Shown in pieces: positions 1,535 through 58,620 of a DNA stretch of 64,000 bases. This DNA is from Octopus vulgaris (taxonomy: Eukaryota): assembly GCA_951406725.2 (NCBI GenBank), contig OX597825.1, positions 88,536,001 to 88,600,000 on the forward strand, written 5' to 3'. The translations under genes were made by a program, and so were the position numbers. Below the pieces are notes generated by a model. The model ran no database searches. It saw only the letters and a program-made list of their open reading frames with translations, and was not told the DNA's origin. Every line of letters starts with the position of its first letter. The first letter of the stretch is position 1.

Positions 1535-2074
1535 CATACATACATACACTCTTTGAGTAAAGATTATTCTCAAGAAAATCCAGCAAACGCCGGAACGTAG
1601 GCGAGCAAGACAAATGAAAAGATACAAACTATAAAGATTAATCACAAACCAGATTTCATTGTTACCACATACGTAATACTTACCTAAATGTCTGCAATTC
1701 ATCAGTGTGATTCTCAGAACAAAATATAACATGCAGAACTATAAACGGGACGTCCGCATGGGAGTGAATATTGAGCATTGAACGTAAGTATTACGTAAGT
1801 GGTAACAATGAAACCGGATTTGTGTTTAATCTTTATATTTTGTATCTCTTCATTTGTCTCGCACGCCTATGTTCTGGCGTTTGCTGAATTTTCTTGAGAA
1901 CAATATTTTCTTAGTGGTCAGACAATATGGAGTCTACTTCTAGCATAATGGATCTCCACTTAGTGGTCATCCGACTTATATGTATGTAATATAATTTTTC
2001 TGAATCTTCAGATTTTTCAATAGGCCACTGGCCTTAAATTGATATTAACCAAATTAATATTCAATTTTCACCTT

Positions 2075-2866: not shown

Positions 2867-4811
2867 AATCATATTTGGAAAAGGAGGCGTGGGATTCGAT
2901 TATATAATAATATATAAATATATAAATATATGCATATATACATACATATAAGTACATACCTACATATATATGTATATCTGTATATATACATGCATTGATG
3001 GGTAACAGAAAACAAAAAAAAAAACGTTGAACACAATGCGAAACGAAAACATAAAAACAAAAACATGGAAAACAAACTTTATTTTCGAACAACGAAAAAA
3101 ACAGAGAAACACGACATGCAACATAAAGAATGTTCCCCTTCATCAGTTGCCAGGCAAAGAAGTACAGAAATTATAAACACATTCAAAGCTGCCTCTCGCC
3201 TTTAGCTTTAAATAGAAAACGACAAACTCCACCTAACATTCGATTTTGTTTCTTTTCAAAGACTATGTTTTGGTCGTCATCGTATATAAGTGTATTGCCA
3301 ACCATTACATGTTGGCGATGGCTGAAAGGAAACCAGGCTGGAGTGCATACCGATTAAGATGGGATGGGCTGTGGAGGGTGTACGGCTGGAGCCTAAGATC
3401 TCAGAGAGGAGGAGGAAAGAGTGTGATGCCAAAGGCACTCCACTCTCAGCTGCTGGTTCCATTGTGTGTGTGTGTGCATGTTTGTGCGCGTGGAACGTGT
3501 GAGGTGTGTATTGCTTATATAATTTTCGTTGCTGTTATGTCTAATTAGAACTTCGTTAAATAATTAAAGTACTTTAAGTCCAAATATATCCCAAATTACG
3601 GATATGGAAGGACATTTACTTTCATAATTTTCCTGCTATGTTCAGTACAGACTGCGATATTTTGGAAGCACTGGAAATAGACTATATTAATCACAAGTTT
3701 AACCGGAACACGTGACACAATCGATAACAGTCTATTAATTCGGGTTTAAATCCATACTCGAAGACATCGGTGGTTATGAAAGTATATCAATTTTCAAGTC
3801 GAAAATTATAGAACTTTGAAGATTGTGATGTCAATGAATGTCTCTATAATCTGAAGCATACTTGAGAAAGAAAAGTATCATGAATTCGTGACATATGACT
3901 TTTTCTCAATTTATATTCTTTAATCTGCAATATTTTCATTTTCAGAGTTATAAAAGTTGTCTTTTTTATGTAGAAGTGAGTCAAGAAGCATTCTGCGCCC
4001 ACGACCATTGAAAATATCGACTAGCAAATGTTTGTTTGTGCGGTTGTATAGTATTACCTACTTCTAAACCGTGGAAGGTAGATAGTCGTCGATTAGTGTA
4101 TTTATTCGCCAAATTAATCCGTTATAATTACTGCTGGATTCAGGATACGAAACATAGTATGCACGACAATTTGAGGAAAGGCGGATTCGAGAAGGGGTAA
4201 TGGCTAGACATGGTATATTACGTTGTATTTCTAAGAGTAATTAATATAGGTAACACTGTTAGATGAAGTAGATATAAATAGCTGTCTAGTAGCACAAGAT
4301 ATGTAAAGTTGTGGTGAGAAAAGGTTTAGTCTGAACCTAAACCAGTACATCATTGCAGGGGCGTTAAATTATGTGAATTTATATAGGCCACAGTCATAAA
4401 CTAGTATCAGAGACAGCGTGCAATCCCCGCCCATACCATCTAATTAATTGGCTGGTATCTTGTTACAACATCTGCCAGCGGTCTCATTAATGTTTCGTGT
4501 ATAATAGTTTAATTAATGCTTTGCTTTTTTTTAACTCATCGCAGCAGAAAATGGTGTTGTATGAATATTTCTATGAACTGCCAAACAGGTTCTTGGAATA
4601 CAATTTTAGTTAATATAGAAAGGCTAATAATTGTTACGCCAAGGGAATACTATGTACGCTTTGAAGTAATTTAAAATTTCCAGATAGAAATTTAGATAAA
4701 TATTTAATTTATAACTGAAATGTGCCTATAATCCTATAACTCGAACCGAATAGCCGAAATTTTAATATTTTGCTTTTAAATCCAAGAAGTATATTCGTAA
4801 TAGAAAATATA

Positions 4812-5691
4812 GGATCTTTGTCTTTTCAACGGCAGTTTTCAACACAATGTTTAGTTAACTAAACACTTTTAAACTTCGTATACTGGTAGAATGTGTTTAT
4901 AAAACATCATTTTTTCTTGGCTTTATTGAGAAAATTCTATAGTTTGTAACATATTTCCACTTTAAAATCGAGTATTTCGGCAATTTTAACCAATCAAATA
5001 CGTCCATTTGGAGTCAAAACATACCCTGCTGTATGAATATGTCCTCGTTTAAGAAACAGATTGGGTTTATTTACATTTGCGAAGAAAAAAAGATACCCTT
5101 CCCGCACCCCTAGCCCTAAACCTAACCCTAACCCTAACCCCAACTCTAACCTTAACCCTAACTCTAACTAAACCTAACCCTAAAATAGATTGAAATGCAA
5201 AGATCGATACTAGGGTTATAATTATGGGTGACATTTTGATTTGACACCGCTAGAAAAAAATCCCATTTTCTGTAGCGGTGTCGTATGAAATTGTCACCCA
5301 TAATTATAACCCTAGTATCGATCTTTGCATTTCAATATATTTTAGGGTTAGATTTAGAATTATGGTTAGGATTAGGTTTAGGGTTAGGGTTAGGGGTGGG
5401 GGAAGGGTATCTTTTTTTCTTCGCAAATGTAAATAAACCCAATCTGTTTCTTAAACAAGCGACATATTCATACAGCACGGTATGTTTTGACTCCAAATGG
5501 ACGTATTTGATTGGTTAAAATTGCCGAAATGCTCGATTTTAAAGTGGAAATATGTTACAAACTATAGAATTTTCTCAATAAAGCCAAGAAAAAATGATGT
5601 TTTATAAACACATTCTACCAGTATACGAAATTTAAAAGGGTTTAGTTAACTAGAAATTGTGTTGACATATGCCGTTCAAAAGGAAAGATCC
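4812..5691. mobile_element. foldback/MITE DNA transposon, nearly fully palindromic, with telomeric repeats in the arms
   Basis: Termini GGATC...GATCC. 8-bp TSD AAAATATA at 4804-4811 and 5692-5699. Arms about 440 bp, centre about 5260. (CCCTAA)n-like tract at about 5108-5183 and (TTAGGG)n-like at about 5342-5396. Confidence 0.92.
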
Positions 5692-6175
5692 AAAATATAT
5701 CTTAATGCAAAGATAAAACATTCACACCATTTGTTTGTAACCAGCATAATCTCATGAAATATAGAGTTGTTAAATTCTTCAAATTATTCCAAAACGAAAC
5801 ACTTAATAAATTAAAACTTGCATTTAAATAATTTCATTCATATATTCAATAATAATATTTGTGTATGTTTGCGCATGTACATACGATTTTGTCGTGACCC
5901 ACTTTATAAGTTAAAAACTTTTTGGAGAAATAAATCAGAGACAGGAGGCATCAAAGTTTGAGTAAGAAAAAGTGTAATAGGGTACAGATATGGCGATATA
6001 AGAGACTTGTCTCCCAAGCGTCTAGCAAGAGACCGATTTAATCTTATTTAGACTTCACTGATATTTAACACATGACTAAACCTGGTGACTATCGGTAAAT
6101 CCTAAACAGAACGTATCCAAATCAATAAACAGCTGGCCAGAATCTTCCTTTGAACTTAATCAAATAACATTTTAC

Positions 6176-6295: not shown

Positions 6296-8062
6296 GGACA
6301 GCAATAATGACAGGTAAAAATGGCCCACACTATTTGCAAAAGAAGCAGAATAAAGTTCGCCTAATATAAAAACTGGTTTTGAATAAAATTTACTTTCTTA
6401 TTTTATACCTGTATAACCTCCATTTCTTAATATAGATATTTAGACCTGGAAACACCGTTTTATATCAACCTTTAAAACCCGAATTTAATAACTAGAATCT
6501 TATGTTGTGACCAAGTCCACGAAACACTTGATCACGCTTTTCCCTTCCCCTAGTGTAGTCTTTGCATTAATTCTTTATTCTTTGTTGTAGATCAACATTT
6601 ACTTTGTTTGTTTTCTTCCTGGGTGGCACCCCTATTGAGTCCTTCGCTATCACTGCACTCACAACAGCCTCTTCCTTCTGAATCGTTCTTATAAGTTTCA
6701 AGATAGATGGGGACTGGTAGCCAACAACATGATAAAAGTTGTTCCAGCCATCACATAGGTGGTTGGTTCTTGGACAGTCATTAATGGTAGCTTGATGTAC
6801 GTTCCAAAGTTCTTGCTGGAATGCTTGGCTAGGAGATCCGTATTCTTATCTGAAGATATGTACTAGAAACATAGATTTCATCGACGTAGTCTGGCAGGGG
6901 AGCAGCGTCAACAGGGCATTTGGCCTTGATTAACTGCATTTCCGCTGGACCAGCTTCAGTTGGTATAAATGACAATCAGTCAATCTGTCCACAGATTTGA
7001 CGTAAGTCCTCACTCTCTTTGCAGTGGTTGGTGAGGTCAAGGTCCTCTATTTTTTTCCGGGTACTCTGTGTCAGGTAGTAGAAACAACCTTGTATGCGTG
7101 TTTCCGGTTCCAAAACATTGTTGATAGCTTGCATGATCCCCTGCTCAAACTCAACAATTATGGTTGTTGGCTCCTGGTAGAGCTCAGTCACGTGGCCACG
7201 ATCCATGACTGCTTGCAGCAGGATTTCATATTCATCTCGTGTTCTGGCCTGCAAACAAGCAACAACAGTAGAAACTACGTAATACTGCAAAGCTGTAGAA
7301 ATCCTAGTGGAGCCATTGCATAGTGGCCATCCATCAGCCGAAGCAGGCAAACGCAGTGATTCACCAGGACCAAACACAATGATGTCGCTTCTAGATTCTC
7401 GTCCATTATTGAAAAGCAAAAGTAGTTTGCGCTTTGGTGGTGCAGTAGTTGTCCATTCTCCAGTTAGTTTCAGATCCTCGAGTATTTCTGGTACTTGTCG
7501 ATAGAGTTTTACCTTTGGTTACGCAAAGTTCTCTTTGTGATGTCCTCACTTGGAAGTAACGTCTTTCTTTAAGCTGATATGTCATTCAGGTTATTGCTGT
7601 AAATCTGGCTGAGTTTATCTTGTTTCTGCTGCTTGTCTCTTCATGTTCATGATGCATTTCGTGGTTGAAATATCTGCAGAATCAGGTGCGTGGTTGTGGT
7701 CATTCATTAGCTGGACAAGAACAGTCGTATCAAGGCTGGTGGACATCTCCATCTGAAAGTAGTTGATCTAAAAATCTGTTTTATATACATGTAGCCATAG
7801 AAGCAGATATCTTTTCCTTTATATTACTCGCTATGCCTTCCATGATGTTGTGATAGAACCACTGACATAAATAGCAATCAGAGTTACTGCTTTCGTATTT
7901 ATTTTGGTAAGGACTCATTGGGATAGCTTGATATACGTTCCAGAGTTCACCAAGCTGTCCCAATGTACGTTCCAAACTTTTCGAGGTAATCTTGCATATT
8001 GTGCCATTTTTACCCATCTTTTCATTTGTGACATTTGCACCTGTGCCATTTTACCTAATTCC
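6296..8062 (-). mobile_element. Mutator-like (MULE) DNA transposon, decayed
   Basis: Subterminal inverted motifs AGGTAAAAATGGC (about 6312) and GCCATTTT(T)ACC (about 8003, about 8045). Flanked by direct repeat ATGTAT[A/G]TGGGTGGA at 6284 and 8063. Contains a transposase relic. Confidence 0.7.
6640..7760 (-). pseudogene. MULE transposase pseudogene
   Basis: ORF 6976..7419 has IIVEFEQGIMQAINNVLEPETRIQGCFYYLTQS (MULE DFE...GCxFH-like). Other frames give PRTNHLCDGWNNF...PSILKLI (TNNxxEGW-like) and an N-terminal NDHNHAPD. Frameshifts and stops present. Confidence 0.8.
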
Positions 8063-19654: not shown

Positions 19655-20218
19655 GAGGAGGGTGTATCAAAGTAATGCCATTTTGTTTAGAACAAGTATA
19701 ATTACCAAAACAGGGATATGTATCATACATCAAAATGAAGCTGGTACCTTGTGAATTACATCCCTACTGCTCAATATAGTTCCCATTTCTCTCAATAGCA
19801 ACGTTCCACCTTCGAATGAGAACATGTACCTCTACCCCGTAAAATTTTGTTGATTCTTCTTTGAGCCACTTCTTCACTACAGCTTTCAGTTCCTCGTCAC
19901 TGAAATGTTTGCCTCTCAATCCCTCTCTCATGGGGCCGAAAAGTTGATAGTCTGAAGGCGCTAAATTATTCCAGTGACGAGGAAGTGAAAACTGTAATGA
20001 AAAGTGGCTCAAATATAAGTCAACAGAATTTTACGGGGCAGAGATAAATGCTCTCATAGGAAGGTGGAACATTGCTATTGAGAGAAACGGTGACTATGTT
20101 GAGAAGTATGGATGTGATCCACCGAAGACCAGCTTAATTTTGTGTATGATACATGTTCTTTTGTTGGTAATTATACCTGTCCTAAAAAAATGGCATTACA
20201 TTTTGACTCCCACTCGTG
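19652..20218. mobile_element. mariner-derived MITE made of two inverted 3' ends
   Basis: Termini CACGAG...AAGTAATGCCATTT and AAATGGCATTAC...CTCGTG; follows TA. Left arm (-) encodes LAPSDYQLFGPMREGLRGKHFSDEELK...RWNVAIERNGNYIE. Right arm (+) encodes SSDEEVKTV...RWNIAIERNGDYVEK. Confidence 0.85.
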
Positions 20219-37356: not shown

Positions 37357-37363
<7 letters not shown>

Positions 37364-37640
37364 TAAACGACCACTGATGAAATTTCCACCATATTGCAAA
37401 TTATATATATGTAAAATCGCAGTATATGCATTTTGACATTCATGTAATATGCTTTAGTGTTTTCGACGTTATATATATATATATAGTGGCTGTGTGGTAA
37501 GTAGCTTGCTAACCAACCACATGGTTCGGGTTCAGTCGCACTTCGTGGCATCTTGGGCAAGTGTCTTCTGCTATAGCCCCGGGCCGACCAATGCCTTGTG
37601 AGTGGATTTGGTAGACGAAAATTGAAAGAAGCCTGTCGTA

Positions 37641-37695
<55 letters not shown>

Positions 37696-37922
37696 ATGTT
37701 TGCGTGCCTCTGTGTTTGTCCCCCTAGCATTGCTTGACAACCGATGGAGGTGTGTTTAAGTCCCCGTCATTAGCGGCTCGGCAAAAGTGACCGATAGAAT
37801 AAGTACTGGGCTTACAAAGAATAAGTCGTGGGGTCGATTTACTCGACTAAAGGCGGTGCTCTAGCATGGCCGTAGTCAAATGACTGAAACAAGTAAAAAA
37901 GTAAAAGAGTAAGAGTAAATAT

Positions 37923-37953
<31 letters not shown>

Positions 37954-38065
37954 ACACGCTCACACTCACGCGCATCGGCAAAATTCGTCAATTTCTTCAA
38001 AATGGGGTCATAACCCCGAAATATTGACTGCAAGATAAGTCATCATTAATTCACATATTTGTTTT

Positions 38066-38113
<48 letters not shown>

Positions 38114-38312
38114 TAGAAATAGAAAGATAGGTAGCTAGACAGCCTGACAGACAGCTGCCACTTTGCAATAGTAAACCAATAAACATGTGCGCTTGAACAT
38201 GCTAGTAATATGATATTAAAAATAAAGCTTCTATTGAAGTTACCGTGAGGAGCCTCAAAATAATTTCAGAAAACTTTCCGTGAATTTGTATGAATATGAT
38301 GGTGAATCGAAG

Positions 38313-38388
<76 letters not shown>

Positions 38389-38500
38389 CGTCGAAAACTC
38401 AAAAGCATATTACATGAATGACAAAATGTATATACTGCGATTTTACATATATATAATTTGCAATATGGTGGAAATTTCATCAGTGGTCGTTTAATATAAT
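37357..38500. repeat. about 115-bp inverted repeat pair (37357-37472 and 38385-38500)
   Basis: TTATATTAAACGACCACTGATGAAATTTCCACC...TTTTCGACGTTAT and its reverse complement; the peptide IKRPLMKFPPYCKLYICKIAVY appears in ORFs on both strands. Confidence 0.88.
37486..37918 (+). mobile_element. SINE family B
   Basis: Near-complete copy inserted in (TA)n. Confidence 0.9.
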
Positions 38501-57229: not shown

Positions 57230-58620
57230 AGACAGAATAAATACCCTCTGAATTTTGGCTGTTGGAATGTGCGCACAATCTTAGATGATTATTTTAAAAG
57301 AAGATCAGAAAGTCCTACTGCACTTCTTGCACGTGAGTTCAAAAAATTATTCGTTTGATATTGTTGCGCTCTCTGAAAATCGTCTCTCCTGTGAGGGACA
57401 GTTAAACGAACCTACACATGGATATATTATCTTCTGGAGAGGGCTACCTGAGGGTCAGCGTAGAGAATCTGGTGTTGGGTGTACACTCAAGATTTCCTTG
57501 GTATCCTTCATGGTATCCTCTGCAAGTGGTAAATCTGAACGACCTATGTCATGCGACATAAAACTAAAAAATAGGTTGGTTTCTTGCCGTTGTCAGTTTT
57601 TGTGAACCAACAAAGTCTCTTCCGGATCTTTTCCTTTTGAACGGCAGATGTCATCACAATTTCTAGTTAACTAAACACTTTTAAACTTCGTATACTGGTA
57701 GAATGTGTTTATAAAACACCACTTTCTCTTGGTTTTATTGAGAAAATTCTATAGTTTGTAAGATATTCCGTCTAAAAATCCGAGCATTTCGGCAATTTTA
57801 GCCAATCGATTACCTCCATTTAGGTAAACAACATTTGCTGCGTCTAAAATTGAGATAACATCCTGTAACTAACCCTTACCCTCACCCTAGCCCTAACCTA
57901 ACCCTAAATTTTTTTCTTAATTGTTAAATTAATTTAATTGTTACGCGTGTAAAAAAACTAAAGCAATGGAAAATAATTTAAACAATTAACATACAAAATA
58001 ATTCTATTTTATACACACGCTTTCCGTATACGTACGGAAAGCGTGTGTATAAAATTAAATAATTATTTTGTTTGTTAATTGTTTAAATTATTTTCCATTG
58101 CTTTAGTTTTTTTTACACGCGTAACAATTAAATTAATTTAACAATTAAGAAAAACAAAATTAGGGTTAGGGTTAGTTACAGGATGTTACCTCAGTTTTAG
58201 ACGCAGCAAATGATTTTTGCTCAAAAGAGAGCATAGGATTAGTTAAAATTTGAAAAATTAAACTACGTTAAACAAATAAATTACAATTTTCTCAAGAAAG
58301 CCAAGAGAAAAAATTGTTTTATTTTGATACATTCTACCAGTATACGAAGTTTTAAAATGTTTAGTTAACTAGAAATTGTCTGCCGTTCAAAAGGTAAAGA
58401 TCCTCTCTTCCTAATAAAACCGTAGTTTTGTGATGAATCAGCACAATTATTAATGAAAGGACAAATTTCTGGTCATATTGGAAGATTGCAATGCACGATT
58501 TGGAAATGTCTACATTTCATGGCCTCTTTTAGGACGACATGAGATGGGAGATGTGATAAAATGGAGAAGTGCTTTTGACATTTTGTACTGATAATAATCT
58601 GCTGTTACGAACACTTTGAT
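57230..58620 (+). pseudogene. RTE-type LINE AP-endonuclease relic split by a foldback element
   Basis: LNFGCWNVRTILD...TALLARE, DIVALSENRL.CEGQL.E..GYIIFWRG...ESGVG and VVSFCEPT before 57624; LVILEDCNARFG...LGRHEMG...LLTFCTDNNL after 58411 (WNVR, QE-like and GDFNAR-like motifs). Confidence 0.85.
57624..58403. mobile_element. foldback/MITE of the same family as 4812-5691, with telomeric repeats
   Basis: GGATC...GATCC termini. 8-bp TSD TCTCTTCC at 57616-57623 and 58404-58411. Outer about 200 bp resemble the 4812 element. CCCTAA-like tract at about 57870-57907 and TTAGGG at about 58160-58175. Centre TTCCGTA-TACG-TACGGAA. Confidence 0.92.

What the first reader, a model, noticed from the sequence alone, without database searches (positions are those of the whole stretch)
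4804..5699. Palindromic transposon carrying outward-facing telomeric repeats
Seen: an 880-bp element that is inverted repeat from end to centre, with GGATC termini and an 8-bp TSD. The left arm has degenerate (CCCTAA)n and the right arm (TTAGGG)n, the same polarity as the two ends of a linear chromosome around a hairpin core. A second member at 57624 also has them despite a different inner sequence, so they are a family trait. Known: TTAGGG is the widespread metazoan, including molluscan, telomere repeat; 8-9-bp TSDs with G-initial long TIRs occur in Merlin and Mutator/Foldback. Inference: the family disperses interstitial telomeric sites. These might bind shelterin, form G-quadruplexes or cruciforms, or seed telomeres at breaks.
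Basis: partly seen in the sequence, partly recalled or inferred. Interest (0 to 1): 0.75.

Follow-up and report, generated by a model that had tools for sequence, protein, structure and literature searches.

The report
Merlin mini-transposons spread telomere repeats
A common family of small, gene-less jumping-DNA elements in this genome carries a few copies of the chromosome-end repeat TTAGGG and accounts for most of the short internal copies sampled on one chromosome, but the repeats are short, decaying and most likely passive cargo rather than working telomere seeds.

Summary
The element is 4812-5691 (880 bp), with GGATC ends, an exact 8-bp TSD, palindromic arms and outward-facing CCCTAA/TTAGGG tracts; the sister copy at 57624-58403 is also as described. 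The family is a set of non-autonomous Merlin elements: its terminal repeat lies 380-575 bp upstream of decayed Merlin (PF12762) transposase genes in 10 of 14 loci examined, and 46 of 77 paired copies have an exact 8-bp TSD. The tracts are a family trait (43 of 48 copies found by their ends), and TTAGGG is this genome's telomere repeat. This family and a related GG-ended family hold 42 of 46 sampled internal (TTAGGG)4 sites, so dispersal is supported. The chromosome-like polarity is not general: several subfamilies carry one tract, and the pair follows from arm duplication. Tracts are short (longest perfect run 3 units or fewer in 127 of 138), decay about as fast as their flanks, and were not seen in the coding relatives. 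They are most likely cargo captured in one or two founder derivatives. Shelterin binding and telomere seeding are untested. The scan noted a similar Merlin and telomere-repeat pairing in another genome (e1-7141006).

The parts
4804..4811 (+). left target-site duplication, 8 bp
   Evidence: identical to 5692-5699
4812..5691 (.). non-autonomous Merlin element (MITE), palindromic subfamily A, 880 bp
4812..5008 (+). part of the left arm homologous to the terminal repeat of Merlin coding copies
   Evidence: positions 1-197 are 81% identical to the right terminal repeat of coding locus L343 and 72% to the left one of L349
5108..5183 (+). degenerate (CCCTAA)13 tract, longest perfect run 2
5184..5341 (.). 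central hairpin core, partly derived from inner terminal-repeat sequence
   Evidence: DNA fold; matches to subfamily G
5342..5395 (+). degenerate (TTAGGG)9 tract, longest perfect run 3
5381..5407 (+). canonical G-quadruplex sequence motif (five G-runs), part tract and part fixed G-rich flank
   Evidence: pattern match only; folding not tested
5692..5699 (+). right target-site duplication, 8 bp
57616..57623 (+). left TSD of the second copy
   Evidence: identical to 58404-58411
57624..58403 (.). second family member, subfamily B, 780 bp, AT-rich palindromic core
57869..57907 (+). degenerate CCCTAA tract of the second copy
58160..58175 (+). short TTAGGG tract of the second copy
58404..58411 (+). 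right TSD of the second copy

Best explanation
The element is a gene-less Merlin DNA transposon copy with an 8-bp target duplication, and its telomere-type repeats are most likely passive cargo that one or two founder copies probably picked up where the transposase gene was lost and that then spread with the family. Shown: GG ends, 8-bp TSD, the same terminal repeat beside decayed Merlin transposase genes, tracts in most non-coding copies and no tandem tract in the coding loci examined. Inferred: the copies were moved in trans by that Merlin transposase; founder tracts of about 2-3 units came from telomerase-type filler at a DNA break; unit number then changed by replication slippage; a fold-back duplication of one arm made the palindrome and with it the outward-facing pair; the copies are now old and decay roughly neutrally. 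The net effect is thousands to tens of thousands of short interstitial telomeric sequences, with no demonstrated function.
For: TSD: 46 of 77 paired copies exact 8 bp and 10 more with one mismatch; in subfamily E, 10 exact and 8 with one mismatch of 25. Partner: of 14 best-matching loci of one Merlin lineage, 10 have the family terminal repeat 380-575 bp upstream of the ATG, pointing at it, and 3 have it downstream; the L343 ORF matches PF12762 at E 5.6e-9, over the cut-off. No tandem hexamers in 11 coding loci. In subfamily E the tract starts at position 282, just after homology to the coding terminal repeat ends at 280. Subfamily G shares 408 bp (89%) with the right end of a coding copy and then carries the same tract module as the window element. 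Single-tract subfamilies exist. Longest perfect run: 0-3 units in 127 of 138 tracts, 4 in 10, 5 in 1. Type-A tract divergence is 6% per base by units or 9% with indels, against 9.5% in the flank. Fresh telomere-repeat insertions of 62 and 21 bp into otherwise intact SINE copies show that this kind of filler occurs in the genome. The element's junctions are shared with runs labelled organisms B, C and D.
Against: No coding copy with both intact ends and a TSD was found; L348 has both ends but a damaged left terminus and no TSD. Coding copies are decayed and may have lost a tract. Tracts recur in at least two sequence contexts and in a second family with other ends, and the tract-bearing derivatives, not the coding copies (20 first-look candidates for their leader), are the ones that amplified; this would also fit an advantage. 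All 33 two-tract copies are outward-facing, although they descend from few founders. The flank figure mixes subfamilies and is inflated, so slight conservation of the tract is not excluded. The 6+8-bp mixed unit of E and F is not a clean telomerase product. 30 of 48 copies keep a G-quadruplex motif.
Confidence: 0.78

Rival explanations
1. The tracts are a selected cis-element: they recruit the host's TRF-type telomere protein or fold into G-quadruplexes, and this helps these non-autonomous copies transpose, survive hairpin processing or escape silencing.
For: Present in 43 of 48 copies found by their ends, in subfamilies A, B, D, E and G and in family F. 38 of 48 have at least two TRF-type half-sites (motif recalled, counted). 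Molluscs have a TRF (PMC8653790, passages). A similar pairing was noted in another genome (e1-7141006, an unchecked note).
Against: No tandem tract in 11 coding loci; 5 of 48 paired copies and several G copies lack it yet have ends and often TSDs; unit number runs from 1 to 30; position and orientation differ among subfamilies; decay is near the flank rate.
Confidence: 0.13
2. The tracts arose inside the element as an ordinary microsatellite from a chance one- or two-unit seed, and match the telomere repeat by coincidence.
For: Minimal E copies have one perfect unit, and E and F tracts mix 6- and 8-bp units. Internal tandem repeats are common in Merlin elements (PMC8101967, passages and supplementary table).
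Against: The unit is exactly the repeat at a real chromosome end of this genome, it occurs in at least two contexts, and de novo telomere-repeat insertions are seen elsewhere. Slippage explains length variation better than origin.
Confidence: 0.15
3. The copies act for the host as spare telomere seeds or fragile sites that shape the karyotype.
For: They supply most short internal perfect repeats sampled. ITS tracts can seed telomeres or template end repair in yeast and nematodes (PMC6410037 and PMC9071541, passages). Long palindromes can break (established knowledge).
Against: Perfect runs are mostly 2-3 units; arms are about 5% diverged; none of 20 contig ends sampled showed the family joined to a telomere array, although only 1 of 20 had an array (those ends were counted for hexamers and three were read, none was aligned to the family library).
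Confidence: 0.07
4. The family belongs to Mutator/Foldback or Zisupton rather than Merlin.
For: Long terminal repeats and 8-bp TSDs occur there too (Zisupton 8 bp: PMC12730594, passages; Mutator recalled). A MULE remnant lies 0.6 kb from the element.
Against: No family sequence in the 30 best MULE loci of 66; a direct terminal-repeat link to a Merlin gene in 10 of 14 loci.
Confidence: 0.03

Closest known systems
Merlin superfamily of DNA transposons (IS1016/IS1595-related); PMC8101967, passages and supplementary table read
   Same: GG termini, 8-bp TSD, terminal repeats within the 24-462 bp range, DDE_Tnp_IS1595 transposase in the coding relatives, non-autonomous derivatives, internal tandem repeats.
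   Different: The internal repeat is the host telomere hexamer and is shared across many subfamilies. The passages read have no occurrence of 'telomer'. Merlin-1_Aplcal (a mollusc) has a 6-bp repeat of 39.5 copies whose unit the table does not give.
TBE telomere-bearing elements of Oxytricha (PMC4724952, passages read); Tel-1 of Tetrahymena (recalled)
   Same: A DNA transposon that carries the host's telomere repeat in its inverted arms.
   Different: TBEs are coding Tc1/mariner elements with a 3-bp ANT TSD and a fixed repeat at the very tip. Here the repeat lies 230-350 bp inside, varies from 1 to 30 units, and was not seen in coding copies.
Short interstitial telomeric sequences (s-ITS) of vertebrates and nematodes (PMC6410037, PMC9071541, passages read)
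   Same: Short dispersed tracts of 2-25 units; insertion at repaired breaks is the proposed source, and 4 of 46 sites here look like that kind.
   Different: In this genome most sampled sites were multiplied by transposition, not inserted one by one. The review names transposition only as a possible route, for heterochromatic ITS.
MITEs with hitch-hiking simple repeats (insect GTCY MITEs, Xenopus Xstir; table in PMC6947457, passages read)
   Same: A simple repeat rides on a MITE and varies in length.
   Different: Here the repeat is the telomere unit.

Membership tests
Merlin superfamily | Termini 5'-GG...CC-3' | tested here: met
   both window copies and nearly all of 77 paired copies
Merlin superfamily | 8- or 9-bp target-site duplication | tested here: met
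   46 of 77 exact 8 bp, 10 with one mismatch, 2 of 7 bp, 1 of 9 bp, 18 without
Merlin superfamily | Terminal inverted repeats of 24-462 bp | tested here: met
   about 26 bp (subfamily D), about 280 bp (E, G and coding copies), up to whole arms of about 430 bp (A)
Merlin superfamily | Shares its terminal repeat with an element coding a DDE_Tnp_IS1595 transposase | tested here: met
   10 of 14 loci with the repeat upstream and 3 downstream; PF12762 at E 5.6e-9; acidic residues in the three Merlin-type motif blocks read by eye in the L344 frame
Merlin superfamily | An intact autonomous element with both ends and a TSD | tested here: inconclusive
   none among the 14 loci extended to 10 kb or held whole; only 40 of 184 candidates were scored
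Merlin superfamily | Mobilisation by that transposase | not testable with these tools
   inferred from shared ends and TSD length
Mutator/Foldback (MULE) | Terminal repeats shared with a MULE-domain transposase | tested here: not met
   0 of the 30 best MULE loci (of 66 matches) hold family sequence within 1.5 kb
Zisupton/KDZ | KDZ transposase in the genome with these ends | tested here: inconclusive
   no PF18758 match, but the control was silent too
Telomere-bearing elements (TBE type) | Telomere repeat at the tip of the terminal repeat, Tc1/mariner transposase, ANT TSD | tested here: not met
   tract 230-350 bp inside, 8-bp TSD, Merlin partner
Short interstitial telomeric sequence | Unit equals the organism's telomere repeat, at internal sites | tested here: met
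   102 CCCTAA in the first 2 kb of contig C22 (1 of 20 ends sampled); internal sites
Short interstitial telomeric sequence | Bound by TRF/shelterin or able to seed a telomere | not testable with these tools
   needs ChIP, EMSA or a seeding assay
Catalogued repeat family (Dfam/Repbase) | Already listed with this structure | not testable with these tools
   no repeat library is on hand

The most novel reading that the evidence does not exclude
Non-autonomous Merlin lineages repeatedly capture the host telomere repeat because it gives them a transposition or survival advantage through the host's TRF-type protein or a G-quadruplex. They thereby become the main source of interstitial telomeric sequence in animal genomes and seed tens of thousands of telomere-protein sites along the chromosomes.
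Probability: 0.13. Interest if true: 0.75.

Novelty: new variant of a known kind. Interest (0 to 1): 0.42.

Why it matters
The origin of the many short telomere-type tracts inside animal chromosomes is an open question (called a mystery in the PMC9071541 passage read). For this genome the answer is concrete: about nine in ten sampled perfect tracts ride in Merlin-type MITEs, so they mark neither ancient fusions nor breaks healed at the spot. That matters for reading telomere searches and FISH signals in such genomes. It also gives a large natural series (1-30 units, one or two tracts, several ages) for testing whether short tracts bind telomere proteins or affect transposition. If the tracts are neutral cargo, as seems likely, the finding is a tidy but modest piece of repeat biology.

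Tried and rejected
Metagenome scan with the terminal motif: one match, not a family member. Extending 20 apparently unpaired ends by 10 kb gave 3 short complete copies and 17 truncated ones, no coding partner. The 30 best Merlin hits and 20 further ones have other termini, or only chance neighbours from the family; the partner came from a weak hit among 20 loci fetched later. MULE loci: no link. KDZ and TRFH profile searches found nothing, with silent controls, so they say nothing either way. A pogo-like remnant beside a family-F fragment (L183/L272) had no Pfam transposase match and no shared ends, so it was rejected as partner. Tract-versus-flank divergence for subfamilies B and E (0.18) is invalid because fixed non-hexamer letters were scored as edits; only type A is used. 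Raw reads of X21 gave one laid read and are uninformative; summed contig depth is not used as copy number. The empty-site comparison for the L187 insertion was not made because no comparison loci were obtained. The sequence look-up in earlier findings gave nothing. Paper searches listed no paper whose title or abstract describes Merlin elements or octopus MITEs with telomere repeats; one search (Merlin, non-autonomous, TTAGGG, transposon) found 0 papers. The original Merlin paper is not held, and subscription journals and Repbase reports are not covered.

Full report
Observation. The element runs from 4812 to 5691 (880 bp), begins GGATC, ends GATCC and is flanked by an exact 8-bp duplication. 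Its outer arms are 284/299 identical, the inner arms 61/66, and 91% of bases pair in the DNA fold. The left arm has a degenerate (CCCTAA)13 at 5108-5183 and the right arm (TTAGGG)9 at 5342-5395; 0 of 20000 shuffles of the left arm reached its 5 perfect units. The second copy, 57624-58403, has the same ends, its own exact 8-bp TSD, another core and shorter tracts.

Setting. The window lies on contig C12 of G000, a 2.8-Gb assembly that earlier AI notes call an octopus genome (not tested here). TTAGGG is its telomere repeat: the first 2 kb of C22 hold 102 CCCTAA; 1 of 20 contig ends sampled had such an array. Contigs of runs labelled organisms B and C cross the left junction of the window element, and one from organism D crosses the right junction; no empty-site joint was listed. 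The insertion therefore predates the split of those samples.

Family. Exact patterns give 237 matches to a 29-base terminus, 1201 to a 35-base arm segment and 3255 to a 20-base tract edge (30 of 30 loci examined were family members). First-look candidates were 1735 for the E arm and 540 for a G segment. Twenty fixed 10-kb stretches held 2 family loci, one of them cut by the edge. That extrapolates to roughly 28,000 copies, with a wide range (my Poisson arithmetic: about 3,000-100,000). Of 77 paired copies held, 46 have an exact 8-bp TSD, 10 one mismatch, 3 a 7- or 9-bp match and 18 none. Subfamilies: A, palindromic, 720-880 bp (the window element); D, about 410-460 bp, one long arm with a tract and a 26-bp right end; B, 580-820 bp (the second window copy); E, two 280-bp arms around one tract of 1-30 units mixing 6- and 8-bp units; G, 870-1070 bp, with none, one or two tracts.

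Tracts. Among 48 paired copies found by their ends, not by their tracts, 33 have a perfect hexamer in both arms, 10 in one and 5 in none; all 33 face outward. But the longest perfect run is 0-3 units in 127 of 138 tracts, 4 in 10 and 5 in 1. Type-A tracts differ from the pure repeat by 6% per base counted by units or 9% with indels, against 9.5% for the flank. The flank value mixes subfamilies and is an upper figure, so I read this as roughly neutral decay, not as proof of it. A canonical G-quadruplex motif is in 30 of 48 A/B-type and 11 of 25 E copies, including both window copies; part of it comes from a fixed G-rich flank.

Share of internal telomeric sites. A pure (TTAGGG)4 search gave 13,740 matches. 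I took the first 46 distinct sites listed on C1, dropping 4 overlapping loci and counting 3 close pairs once. With tracts masked in the library, 39 matched this family, 4 a second family F and 3 nothing. One of the 39 (L186) is a weak neighbouring hit whose tract lies in a SINE, so the count is 38 + 4 + 4. Family F has other 25-bp ends that also begin GG, a single tract and 1239 first-look candidates; 7 of its 21 paired loci show an exact 8-bp TSD (two of these look like duplicates of one insertion) and 4 more one mismatch. Its arms resemble those around another Merlin lineage at 69-86%, and its tract edges resemble an E variant. Two of the four F sites were used to define F. Of the isolated sites, two are clean insertions of 62 and 21 bp into otherwise intact SINE copies, the classic short-ITS pattern. 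The sample is one chromosome.

Superfamily. The genome has at least 150 Merlin and 66 MULE matches. The best-scoring loci of both have other ends. A weaker Merlin hit, L342, had a family arm 0.7 kb downstream. A search with its gene gave 184 candidates, 40 scored. In 14 of the closest loci the family terminal repeat lies 380-575 bp upstream of the start codon, pointing at it, in 10; downstream, pointing back, in 3 (one locus has both); and is absent in 2. The more distant loci (71-73% identity) showed no flanking terminus. The L343 frame matches PF12762 at E 5.6e-9; L344 is a frame of about 285 codons with three internal stops. All copies seen are decayed, the leader search found only 20 candidates, and none has both intact ends and a TSD. 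With GG ends and 8-bp TSDs, as defined in the PMC8101967 passages, this files the family as non-autonomous Merlin.

How it likely arose. None of 11 coding loci has tandem hexamers. In E the tract starts two bases after homology to the coding terminal repeat ends. G keeps 408 bp of a coding copy's right end and then the tract module found in D and A. D's inner end and A's core match inner terminal-repeat sequence. The simplest path, inferred, is: coding element, deletion derivative with one tract, then fold-back duplication to the palindrome. That makes the outward-facing pair a by-product. Filler of telomere repeats at a break is the likely source, because such insertions occur here and are the proposed origin of short ITS (PMC6410037, passages). 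Shared tract edges among B, E and F suggest one or two captures followed by module exchange rather than many captures (by eye).

Function. Molluscs have a TRF (PMC8653790, passages), and 38 of 48 copies have two or more half-sites by a recalled motif, so weak binding is possible. Nothing here tests binding, cruciform extrusion or seeding. Runs of 2-3 perfect units in 5%-diverged arms make a strong role unlikely (inference).

Literature. Seen as passages: PMC8101967 (part 1 of 2 of supplementary file 5), PMC12730594, 10.1101/2022.01.04.475009, PMC6947457, PMC9071541, PMC6410037, PMC8653790 and PMC4724952. Other papers were seen as search listings only. The original Merlin paper was not available. 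Tandem repeats in Merlin elements and transposons bearing telomere repeats (TBE) are both known. These searches found no description of Merlin MITEs as the main carriers of short ITS. Repbase and Dfam could not be checked, and two alignment supplements of PMC8101967 could not be read; Merlin-1_Aplcal's 6-bp repeat may prove to be the same thing. From memory, and untested, some fish GG-ended MITEs carry similar tracts.

Verdict. Real, well characterised, a new variant of a known kind. Interest 0.42.

Noticed in passing
window about 6300-8050, minus strand: Decayed MULE transposase (PF10551 at E 6e-7 for 6979-7518), 0.6 kb from the element; no shared ends with the family.
   Followed up: partly
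window 1556-1911, 19731-20142 and 37357-38500: Three other inverted-repeat elements without telomere tracts; not classified.
   Followed up: no
L273-L302 (for example L282:1476-2086): Family F: a second abundant GG-ended MITE, often with an 8-bp TSD, carrying a single TTAGGG/TTTTAGGG tract; its arms resemble those around Merlin loci L058 and L318.
   Followed up: partly
L452:990-1055 and L186:1500-1524; also L180 and L187: Isolated perfect telomere-repeat insertions, two of them into intact SINE copies and one into an LTR-retroelement-like sequence; the classic short-ITS type.
   Followed up: partly
L246:1-760 (start of contig C22): A true terminal (CCCTAA)n array followed by a subtelomeric repeat; the other 19 contig ends sampled lack one.
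   Followed up: partly
L303:3050-3940, minus strand: A Merlin transposase frame of 319 codons without stops that clusters with no other of 50 Merlin loci and has no clear terminal repeats; possibly domesticated.
   Followed up: no
L031-L060, L303-L322: At least 13 Merlin transposase clusters coexist in this genome, several with 305-350-codon open frames.
   Followed up: partly
L011, L081, L094, L225, L376, L391: Family copies with nested inserts (LINE end, SINE, other MITE pieces, an LTR-like piece splitting a tract) that keep their outer TSD in most cases.
   Followed up: no
L014, L015, L022, L023, L025 (contig C29, about 21-22 Mb); L075, L079, L080: Copies multiplied by segmental duplication within C2H2 zinc-finger gene clusters, recognisable by shared flanks.
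   Followed up: no
L272:6600-8300, minus strand: A pogo-like transposase remnant (likeness by eye, no Pfam match) next to a family-F fragment.
   Followed up: partly
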